From Escherichia coli (lineage in GTDB: Bacteria; Pseudomonadota; Gammaproteobacteria; Enterobacterales; Enterobacteriaceae), in the NCBI RefSeq assembly GCF_009931435.1, contig NZ_CP043414.1: a stretch of DNA of 64,000 nt; one strand, 5' to 3'. Positions 28,871 through 29,177 of this stretch are shown piece after piece. The stretch's first letter is position 1. Each line of letters starts with the position of its first letter. Position numbers and translations under genes: made by a program. The notes beneath the pieces are model-generated. The model was not told the origin of the DNA. It saw only the letters and a list, made by a program, of their open reading frames with translations, and made no database searches.

Positions 28871-29177
28871 ATTCCTCTCATCCACGTTTAGTAAGCGCGG
28901 CGAGCATTCTTGCTGATGCGACGCATTGCTTCCCCCCCTTTACACCTTAATGCCGTTCCCCCCACACAGAACAAATTGTTTATACCTGGCTGAGTAAATA
29001 ACCTTATTGTTAGTATTGGTATGCTGGGAGATGATAACCCCGCAATTTCATTATTCATTGTTCTCCCATAGGATGAGGTTTCCCGCCGTAACTGGCGGGC
29101 TTTTTTTGCCGCAGAATTTTCCCTTTTAACATCCTGTAAACGGAAACTGCGCCGAAGCGCAGTTTAAGCGTTGATGG

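What the first reader, a model, noticed from the sequence alone, without database searches (positions are those of the whole stretch)
28871..29107. Second plus-strand terminator about 270 bp after minE with only micro-ORFs in between
Besides the minE terminator (28840..28870) there is another strong plus-strand hairpin plus T-run (cccgccgtaactggcggg ttttttt, 29082..29107). The sequence between them holds only tiny ORFs (for example MLGDDNPAISLFIVLP, 16 codons, and a 26-codon ORF). This suggests an unannotated small transcript (sRNA or micro-protein) ending at the second terminator; a third hairpin (29143..29164) terminates the convergent autotransporter gene.
Basis: partly seen in the sequence, partly recalled or inferred. 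Interest (0 to 1): 0.3.

Follow-up and report, generated by a model that had tools for sequence, protein, structure and literature searches.

The report
Unannotated Hfq-bound small RNA after minE
The second terminator after the cell-division gene minE most likely ends an unannotated, highly conserved small regulatory RNA of about 75-90 bases; published E. coli K-12 data show an RNA from this spacer binding the RNA chaperone Hfq, but nobody has named or tested it.

Summary
A canonical plus-strand intrinsic terminator (T2: 6-bp GC stem 29082-29099, then U7 at 29101-29107) lies 270 nt after minE, in the E. coli minE-ycgI spacer. Nothing is annotated there in K-12 RefSeq, and Rfam has no match.

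A 78-nt island that ends exactly at the T-run (29030-29107) is almost invariant. It is identical in 4116 of 5316 E. coli records. A 57-nt core is identical in E. albertii. The flanks vary about 20-fold more.

Bar et al. 2021 re-analysed the K-12 Hfq RIL-seq data and list 'minE.ycgI.IGR' with 137 chimeric fragments, 5 partners, second in the chimera every time, and a U-tract of 7. Only T2 has a U7 on that strand.

Against this, Term-seq (Adams 2021) lists no 3' end at T2 in three conditions. It places a Rho-dependent termination region just upstream, next to a C-rich tract.

Verdict: a probable Hfq-dependent sRNA, seen before only as an unnamed candidate. It is a new member of a known kind and of moderate interest. 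The 5' end, promoter and targets are inferred, not shown.

The parts
28546..28812 (+). minE coding sequence, the last gene of minCDE
   Evidence: 88-aa ORF. Annotated as minE in K-12 and in every fetched E. coli locus.
28837..28869 (+). T1, the minE intrinsic terminator (12-bp stem plus U5)
   Evidence: Term-seq 3' ends at K-12 1224224/5(-) map onto it.
28925..28972 (+). C-rich, G-poor tract, a candidate Rho utilisation (rut) site for transcripts that read through T1
   Evidence: C=20 and G=3 in 28933-28972. Adams 2021 places a Rho termination region at K-12 1224064(-), about window 29021, with score 24.9 and p = 3.6e-67. That this tract is the rut site is an inference.
28991..29010 (+). Small conserved island A (TGAGTAAATAACCTTATTGT), lying over the -41 to -22 region of the proposed promoter
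   Evidence: TGAGTAAATAAC is invariant in the E. coli alleles and is TGAGTAATTAAC in E. albertii. A role as a -35 element or activator site is an inference.
29020..29025 (+). Candidate -10 hexamer: TATGCT here, TATACT in K-12, CATTCT in E. albertii
   Evidence: Positions A2 and T6 are kept in 12 of 14 genome alleles (exceptions: Ec55 TATCCA and ws5-3, which has a 2-nt deletion) and in all 74 metagenome contigs, while position 4 takes all four bases. The consensus promoter scan did not call it because there is no good -35. Not experimentally mapped.
29030..29081 (+). Conserved, mostly unpaired body of the proposed sRNA, containing the anti-Shine-Dalgarno/anti-start motif UUCUCCCAU
   Evidence: Pi = 0.006 against 0.12-0.14 upstream and 0.10 downstream. 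29042-29098 is identical in E. albertii. The centroid fold leaves it largely single-stranded.
29082..29107 (+). T2, an intrinsic terminator and Hfq-binding-type 3' module (UUU, 6-bp GC hairpin, U7)
   Evidence: It holds the only U7 on the min strand of the K-12 spacer, matching the U-tract of 7 given for minE.ycgI.IGR in the RIL-seq analysis.
29144..29165 (-). T3, the hairpin just after the stop of the convergent autotransporter gene; not part of the sRNA
   Evidence: Conserved in E. albertii. No U-tract, and not called by the terminator scan.
28888..29058 (-). Antisense ORF (MNNEIAG...), probably not a gene; its ribosome-binding site and ATG are the mirror image of the sRNA's conserved body
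   Evidence: Its length varies from 15 to 74 aa among alleles, it is frameshifted in two, and it shows no codon-position signal. No Pfam or NCBIfam family matches.

Best explanation
T2 is the terminator of an unannotated, Hfq-binding small RNA on the minE strand. The RNA is about 75 nt if it starts near 29031-29033, and up to about 90 nt if it starts earlier. It most likely has its own weak or activator/stationary-phase-dependent promoter: a -10 hexamer at 29020-29025 and the conserved island 28991-29010 over the -35 region. Its body (29030-81) is mostly single-stranded and carries an anti-Shine-Dalgarno/anti-AUG motif (UUCUCCCAU). Its 3' end is the classical Hfq module of UUU, GC hairpin and U7. 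It would act by base-pairing with other mRNAs on Hfq. Transcripts that leak through the minE terminator T1 are stopped separately by Rho at the C-rich tract, so the sRNA is insulated from minCDE. Shown: the terminator anatomy, the conservation island, and the listing of minE.ycgI.IGR in the Hfq RIL-seq analysis. Inferred: the transcription start site, the promoter, the size, that T2 is the in vivo 3' end, and regulatory activity.
For: (1) T2 has canonical terminator anatomy. (2) Conservation is sharply local. In 13 E. coli alleles, 4 of 79 columns vary in 29030-29107 against 66 of 203 in the flanks (Fisher p = 2e-7). 4116 of 5316 E. coli records are 100% identical over the 78 nt, although the whole spacer is only 88-98% identical to the window. 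In E. albertii the spacer is about 77% identical where it can be aligned, yet 57 nt (29042-29098) are identical and the T-run is kept. Similarity drops sharply just after the T-run. (3) Bar et al. 2021 (PMC8175672, Suppl. Table 1) re-analysed the Melamed 2016 K-12 Hfq RIL-seq data. They list minE.ycgI.IGR with sRNA score 0.276, ranked beside RybB (0.292), AllZ/allR (0.295) and Spot 42 (0.228). It has 137 chimeric fragments, 5 partners, and an SIC score of 0.8, which with k = 5 means it was the second RNA in 100% of chimeras. Its U-tract is 7. Only T2 has a U7 on that strand; T1 has U5. (4) The polymorphism pattern of the candidate -10 hexamer fits a sigma-70-type -10 element: A2 and T6 are fixed and position 4 is free. 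(5) The one common lineage with two changes in the body (Ec55 type, 557 records) also has T6 changed to A in that hexamer. This looks like joint decay.
Against: The curated Term-seq list of Adams 2021 (LB OD 0.4, LB OD 2.0, M63) has no 3' end at K-12 ~1223978 on either strand. No transcription start site data could be obtained, and no consensus promoter was found. K-12 RefSeq annotates no RNA there, and Rfam 15 has no match. In the B2-type allele (350 records, 19 of 74 metagenome contigs) a G-to-A change puts a C.A mismatch in the plus-strand stem, and the minimum-free-energy fold loses the hairpin. On the minus strand the same change gives a G.U pair. No compensatory change was seen. I saw only the summary rows of the RIL-seq table, not read coordinates or partner names. 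The strand rests on the table's naming order, which I inferred from fliC.fliA.IGR and fadA.fre.IGR using remembered gene order.
Confidence: 0.6

Rival explanations
1. T2 is only a back-up (tandem) terminator. It catches minCDE transcripts that escape T1 and Rho, and so shields the convergent autotransporter gene from collisions. The Hfq signal would then come from decay fragments that carry a U7 hairpin, not from a dedicated regulator.
For: T2 lies downstream of T1 on the same strand and faces a convergent gene. Rho-dependent read-through across this spot is strong with bicyclomycin: coverage downstream rises from 18 to 571. No T2 3' end appears in the Term-seq list, and no consensus promoter was found.
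Against: A back-up terminator does not explain why the 52 nt in front of the hairpin are nearly invariant in E. coli (40 of them identical in E. albertii) while T1's own surroundings vary more. It also does not explain 137 chimeras with five partners, always as the second RNA. About 95 E. coli genomes have T1 but lack T2 altogether, for example strain FEX669.
Confidence: 0.2
2. The conserved element is read on the minus strand. It would be a translation initiation region (5' hairpin, GGGAGAA, ATG at 29058) of a small protein beginning MNNEIAG (36 aa in most strains), or a short regulatory leader peptide.
For: A strong Shine-Dalgarno sequence lies 4 nt before the ATG, and the first 7 codons are identical in E. 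coli and E. albertii. The B2 substitution keeps the hairpin on this strand as a G.U pair. PGAP calls a hypothetical protein here in some genomes, and UTI89 has C1358 here.
Against: ORF length runs from 15 to 74 aa, with frameshifts in Ec55 and ws5-3. Variable sites by codon position are 7:6:10 within E. coli and 11:6:11 between K-12 and E. albertii, so there is no coding signature. Third codon positions of codons 1-9 are frozen, which points to constraint on the nucleotides rather than on a protein. Conservation extends through the A-run and stops there, which fits a plus-strand 3' end. No protein family matches. The RIL-seq name order and U-tract point to the other strand.
Confidence: 0.08
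3. One of the plus-strand micro-ORFs is a real micro-protein: the 16-codon ORF at 29021-29071, the 27-codon ORF at 28910-28993, or the 40-codon ORF at 29007-29129.
For: The ORFs exist in this window.
Against: ATG 29021 is ATA or ATC in most alleles. The 27-codon ORF spans an indel-rich, highly variable stretch. The 40-codon ORF runs through T2, so T2-terminated RNA would lack its stop codon. No protein family matches.
Confidence: 0.02

Closest known systems
Hfq-dependent, intergenic, trans-acting sRNAs of E. coli (for example RybB and Spot 42), and the RIL-seq-predicted sRNAs later verified by northern blot in Bar et al. 2021 (for example AllZ from allR, and the fadA 3' UTR RNA)
   Same: Size of about 75-90 nt. 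A GC hairpin with a U7 tail preceded by UUU. An unpaired, conserved body. Hfq RIL-seq behaviour typical of sRNAs: always second in the chimera, several partners, and a score in the range of known sRNAs.
   Different: No northern blot, no transcription start site, no named targets and no Rfam family. It was not detected in Term-seq at OD 0.4-2.0. It was found only in E. coli, E. albertii and one related Escherichia lineage, and is absent from E. whittamii and two further Escherichia lineages.
3'UTR-derived sRNAs (for example CpxQ, SdhX, MalH, FliX)
   Same: It sits downstream of a coding operon on the same strand, and Hfq binds at a terminator.
   Different: It lies beyond the operon's own efficient terminator T1 and beyond a Rho termination region. 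It therefore does not share the mRNA's terminator, so a separate promoter is more likely than processing.
Tandem or back-up intrinsic terminators
   Same: It is a second hairpin with a U-tract, about 240 nt after the first, on the same strand and before a convergent gene.
   Different: It comes with 52 nt of strongly conserved upstream sequence and with Hfq-chimera evidence, neither of which a back-up terminator needs.
Type I toxin-antitoxin pairs and cis-antisense RNA pairs (for example SymE/SymR; recalled from memory)
   Same: The plus-strand RNA is perfectly antisense to the ribosome-binding site and start codon of a small minus-strand ORF.
   Different: The ORF is not conserved in frame or length, has no obvious transmembrane helix and occurs once per genome. 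There is no evidence that it is expressed.

Membership tests
Intrinsic (Rho-independent) terminator | GC-rich stem-loop followed directly by a U-tract | tested here: met
   6-bp GC stem (7 pairs counting a G.U), a loop of 4-6 nt, one C, then U7. Folds at -12.3 kcal/mol.
Intrinsic (Rho-independent) terminator | RNA 3' ends map to the U-tract in vivo | tested here: inconclusive
   No 3' end at K-12 ~1223978(-) in the curated Term-seq list for three conditions, whereas T1 is present. The RIL-seq feature table places Hfq-bound fragments within 50 nt of a U7 tract.
Intrinsic (Rho-independent) terminator | The hairpin is maintained across relatives | tested here: inconclusive
   The hairpin is intact in the canonical allele (4116 of 5316 records), and the Ec55-type allele (557 records) also keeps the stem unchanged. 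It is shortened to 5 bp in E. albertii. The B2-type allele (350 records) has a C.A mismatch with no compensating change, but a longer T-run.
Hfq-dependent base-pairing sRNA | 3' Hfq module: terminator hairpin, long U tail, and U-rich sequence just upstream (Otaka/Ishikawa/Aiba criteria, recalled from memory) | tested here: met
   GAGGUUU, then the hairpin, then C and U7.
Hfq-dependent base-pairing sRNA | Physical association with Hfq and RNA partners | tested here: met
   Taken from a published table, not from raw data. minE.ycgI.IGR has 137 chimeric fragments, 5 partners and SIC 0.8 in one data set, and 12 fragments and 1 partner in another.
Hfq-dependent base-pairing sRNA | Discrete transcript with a defined 5' end | not testable with these tools
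   The transcription start site datasets were not held or did not cover the locus. The promoter is inferred only from conservation.
Hfq-dependent base-pairing sRNA | Conserved, accessible seed region | tested here: met
   29030-29081 has pi = 0.006, and 29042-29081 is identical in E. albertii. The centroid structure leaves it unpaired.
Hfq-dependent base-pairing sRNA | Regulation of targets through base pairing | not tested
A duplex scan of the 138 translation initiation regions in the window scored no better than shuffled sequences: -31.5 against -31.6 +/- 2.2 kcal/mol.
Any Rfam family | Covariance-model match | tested here: not met
   No match inside 29030-29107 even at E <= 10.
Small protein gene (sORF) | Conserved start codon, conserved reading frame and a coding substitution pattern | tested here: not met
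   The plus-strand ORF's ATG is lost in most alleles. The minus-strand ORF keeps its start, but its frame and length are not kept, and codon-position counts are 7:6:10 and 11:6:11.
Type I toxin-antitoxin | Conserved small hydrophobic toxin ORF plus an overlapping antisense RNA | tested here: not met
   The antisense geometry is present, but the ORF is not conserved and lacks a clear transmembrane segment.

The most novel reading that the evidence does not exclude
The locus could be a two-strand module. The plus-strand Hfq-binding RNA is the exact antisense of the ribosome-binding site and first codons of the minus-strand MNNEIAG ORF. It might therefore act in cis as an antitoxin-like or antisense repressor of a small peptide read from the 3' side of the autotransporter gene, in addition to any trans targets. 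This would be a degenerate type I TA-like or dual-strand regulatory unit next to minCDE.
Probability: 0.06. Interest if true: 0.6.

Novelty: new member of a known kind. Interest (0 to 1): 0.4.

Why it matters
E. coli K-12 has the best-annotated bacterial genome. Even so, this spacer next to the cell-division operon minCDE holds a 78-nt element that is more conserved than its surroundings and carries no annotation. The published Hfq interactome lists an RNA from this spacer only as an unnamed row in a supplementary table. If it is confirmed, it adds an Escherichia-restricted Hfq sRNA, probably expressed in stationary phase, to the known set. Its five RIL-seq partners would give immediate hypotheses for its function. 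The case also shows how a strong ribosome-binding site plus ATG on the opposite strand can simply mirror an sRNA's conserved anti-Shine-Dalgarno body. That mirror image leads annotation pipelines to call a spurious hypothetical protein in some genomes.

Tried and rejected
- **Rfam:** a scan of 28000-30000 at E <= 10 found nothing in the block.
- **Pfam and NCBIfam:** the minus-strand and plus-strand ORFs gave no credible family. An exact-sequence look-up returned only 'hypothetical protein'.
- **Plasmid and phage collections:** the only hits were chromosomal E. coli copies mislabelled as plasmids, and there were no phage hits.
- **End-mapping supplements:** nothing at this locus, or no text held, for Cappable-seq (stored file truncated), SMRT-Cappable-seq, TERMITe, Dar & Sorek 2018, the Rend-seq annotation paper, the 3'-UTR valves paper and Melamed 2016. 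Thomason 2015 is not held.
- **Full-text searches:** searches for the DNA, RNA or peptide strings and for 'minE.ycgI' found no paper.
- **Target scan:** a duplex scan of the window's 138 translation initiation regions gave a best energy equal to shuffled controls.
- **PhoP box:** the PhoP-box-like repeat at 28977-28993 is a 2-mismatch match. There are 37 such matches in the window against 18 expected, so it is not specific. The K-12 copy has 1 mismatch, and 40 of 200 shuffles match as well.
- **Other promoter types:** I checked sigma-28, sigma-54, sigma-E, Fur, IHF and CpxR look-alikes by eye and dropped them as weak.
- **Covariation in the T2 stem:** none was found among 14 genome alleles and 74 metagenome contigs.

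Full report
**Where this is.** Window 28546-28812 is minE, preceded by minD and minC. The finding lies in the spacer that K-12 carries between minE and the pseudogene ycgI (NC_000913.3 1223908-1224278, opposite orientation). RefSeq annotates nothing there, neither a CDS nor an RNA. In this window the convergent gene is a long AIDA-type autotransporter. Coordinates map as follows:
- T2 at window 29082-29107 = K-12 1224003-1223978(-)
- T1 at window 28840-28869 = K-12 1224251-1224222(-)
- window 29030 = K-12 1224055

- T2 reads CCCGCC-GTAACT-GGCGGG, then C, then T7. It is the best plus-strand terminator-like site in 28000-30000, where 6 sites were found against 1.8 +/- 1.3 in shuffles.
- T2 folds at -12.3 kcal/mol and T1 at -17.6 kcal/mol. 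The third hairpin (29144-29165) folds at -15.8 kcal/mol on the minus strand but lacks a U-tract.
- The plus-strand ORFs between T1 and T2 are tiny.

**The micro-ORFs are not conserved.** I aligned 13 E. coli alleles chosen across the identity range, plus E. albertii.
- ATG 29021 is ATA or ATC in most alleles.
- The 27-codon ORF sits in the most variable, indel-rich part of the spacer.
- The 40-codon ORF runs through T2, so T2-terminated RNA would lack its stop codon.

**What is conserved.**
- Pairwise diversity is 0.12-0.14 in 28871-29029 and 0.10 in 29108-29143, but 0.006 in 29030-29081. The T2 stem varies at only one position.
- Variable columns number 4 of 79 in 29030-29107 against 66 of 203 in the flanks (Fisher p = 2e-7).
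- The 78-nt block was found in 5315 of 5426 complete E. coli genomes. Of the 5316 matching records, 4116 are identical to the window, although the whole spacer is only 88-98% identical to it. The two common variants are an Ec55 type (557 records) and a B2 type (350 records).
- In E. albertii the spacer has diverged to about 77% where it can be aligned at all. Even so, 29042-29098 is identical, a T8 follows, and similarity drops sharply just after the T-run.
- E. whittamii and two further Escherichia lineages have an unrelated sequence after minE and lack the block. About 95 E. coli genomes keep T1 but have lost the block together with the autotransporter, for example FEX669.
- A conserved unit whose right edge is the end of a U-tract is what a plus-strand transcript ending at T2 predicts.

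**Published experimental data for K-12.**
- Adams et al. 2021 (PMC7815308) list Term-seq 3' ends at 1224224/5(-), which is T1. They list none at about 1223978 in LB OD 0.4, LB OD 2.0 or M63.
- The same paper reports a Rho termination region at 1224064(-), about window 29021. Its Rho score is 24.9 with p = 3.6e-67. Coverage upstream/downstream is 230/18 without bicyclomycin and 293/571 with it.
- This fits the C-rich, G-poor tract at 28925-28972 (C 20, G 3 in 40 nt). T1 read-through is therefore normally stopped by Rho before it reaches the block.
- Bar et al. 2021 (PMC8175672) re-analysed the Hfq RIL-seq data of Melamed 2016. Their Supplementary Table 1 has rows for 'minE.ycgI.IGR'.
- In one data set the row reads: sRNA score 0.276, 137 chimeric fragments, 5 unique partners, SIC 0.8, U-tract 7. 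The neighbouring rows (allR, ykgH, fadA) suggest this is the stationary-phase set; that is my inference.
- In another data set it reads: 12 fragments, 1 partner, score 0.028.
- By the paper's definitions, SIC = S - 1/k, so S = 1.0: the RNA was always second in the chimera, the sRNA signature. The U-tract is the longest U-run within 50 nt of the RNA's fragments. On the min strand of the K-12 spacer only T2 has U7; T1 has U5.
- The score lies between AllZ/allR (0.295, verified by northern blot), RybB (0.292), ykgH (0.239) and Spot 42 (0.228).
- The RNA is not mentioned in the main text, was not tested, and has no name.
- The strand follows from the name order (minE then ycgI), as for fliC.fliA.IGR and fadA.fre.IGR. 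That convention is my inference from remembered gene order.

**Proposed mechanism.** An RNA of about 75 nt starts near 29031-29033 and ends at T2.
- Its body is predicted to be mostly unpaired (centroid).
- It contains UUCUCCCAU, which is complementary to a Shine-Dalgarno sequence plus AUG.
- Its 3' end is UUU, hairpin, U7.
- The hexamer at 29020-29025 is TATGCT here, TATACT in K-12, and TATCCT, TACACT, TATTCT or CATTCT elsewhere. A2 and T6 are kept in 12 of 14 genome alleles and in all 74 metagenome contigs, while position 4 takes every base. This is the pattern expected of a -10 element.
- The small conserved island 28991-29010 lies over the -35 region but does not resemble TTGACA. The consensus scan found no promoter. 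An activator-dependent or sigma-S-type promoter is therefore a guess.
- The Ec55-type lineage has T6 changed to A in this hexamer, a 1-nt deletion, and a C-to-A change in the body. This could be joint decay.

**Points against.**
- No mapped 5' or 3' end is available.
- Term-seq is silent up to OD 2.0.
- There is no covariation in the stem.
- The B2 allele breaks the plus-strand hairpin (C.A; the minimum-free-energy fold loses it) but lengthens the T-run to 8-9. On the minus strand the same change is a G.U pair.

**The minus strand.**
- The reverse complement of the block reads hairpin, GGGAGAA, then ATG at 29058, opening an ORF that begins MNNEIAG.
- The ORF is 36 aa in most alleles, 56 aa here, 15 aa in Ec55 and 74 aa in ws5-3.
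- PGAP calls it a hypothetical protein in some genomes, and UTI89 names it C1358.
- Variable sites by codon position are 7:6:10 within E. coli and 11:6:11 between K-12 and E. albertii. The third positions of codons 1-9 do not vary within E. coli, and downstream codons change freely.
- I read the ribosome-binding site and ATG as the mirror image of the sRNA's conserved anti-Shine-Dalgarno body. A cis-antisense or type I TA-like pairing cannot be excluded, and I give it as the novel case.

**Comparison and verdict.**
- The element works like an Hfq-dependent intergenic sRNA. It meets the anatomical and Hfq-association criteria.
- Transcript ends and target regulation remain untested (see the membership table).
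- It matches no Rfam family and is not annotated in K-12.
- A pure back-up terminator is the main rival. It does not explain the conserved 52 nt upstream of the hairpin or the chimera data.
- Novelty: a new member of a known kind, already glimpsed in a supplementary table. Interest is moderate.

Noticed in passing
window 29178-33940 (-), junction near 31467-31478: The convergent AIDA-type autotransporter gene is split into 743-aa and 845-aa ORFs. Compared with the intact 1558-aa gene of strain R32_14_1F (about 99% identical), the window lacks 43 nt between two copies of a 12-nt direct repeat (GCCAYCAGCGCG), which shifts the frame.
   Followed up: partly
window 28925-28972 (+): A C-rich, G-poor tract (C 20, G 3 in 40 nt) lies 50-90 nt upstream of the position that corresponds to a published strong Rho termination region (K-12 1224064(-), Adams 2021). 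It is probably the rut site for minCDE read-through.
   Followed up: partly
window 28888-29058 (-); L003 3026-3250: The antisense ORF (MNNEIAG...) is annotated as a hypothetical protein in some E. coli genomes (WP_162822821.1; UTI89_C1358). It varies from 15 to 74 aa and shows no coding signature, so it is probably an annotation artefact.
   Followed up: yes
L013 2501-2650 (E. coli FEX669): This strain has a natural deletion. minE and T1 are followed directly by a ymgI-like gene, ymgG and ymgD. The block, T2, T3 and the autotransporter are all missing. About 95 complete genomes match T1 but not the block.
   Followed up: partly
L015, L017, L019 at 2765-3220: E. whittamii and two other Escherichia lineages, one of them labelled E. 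coli SCPM-O-B-8794, have an unrelated AT-rich region after minE with a different long hairpin (CTGATCTGACAG...CTGTCAGAT). The minE 3' flank has therefore been replaced within the genus.
   Followed up: no
L011/L012 576-602, equivalent to window 29082-29107: The B2-type allele (for example Nissle 1917, ATCC 11775, ATCC 25922-like) has a G-to-A change in the 3' arm of T2 and a T-run of 8-9. It is found in 350 E. coli records and 19 of 74 metagenome contigs. The plus-strand hairpin is predicted to be lost, so T2 or the sRNA may be weakened in this phylogroup.
   Followed up: partly
L008 500-600 (Ec55 type), equivalent to window 29020-29070: One lineage (557 records) combines a change at T6 of the candidate -10 hexamer (TATCCA), a 1-nt deletion in AACCCCGC, and CTCCCAT changed to CTCCAAT. 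This may be decay of the element in that lineage.
   Followed up: partly
window 55717-55733 (+): A perfect PhoP-box-type direct repeat, GGTTTATTTAATGTTTA, is the only zero-mismatch match to KGTTTA-N5-KGTTTA in the window. From memory it resembles the phoP promoter box. I did not examine it.
   Followed up: no
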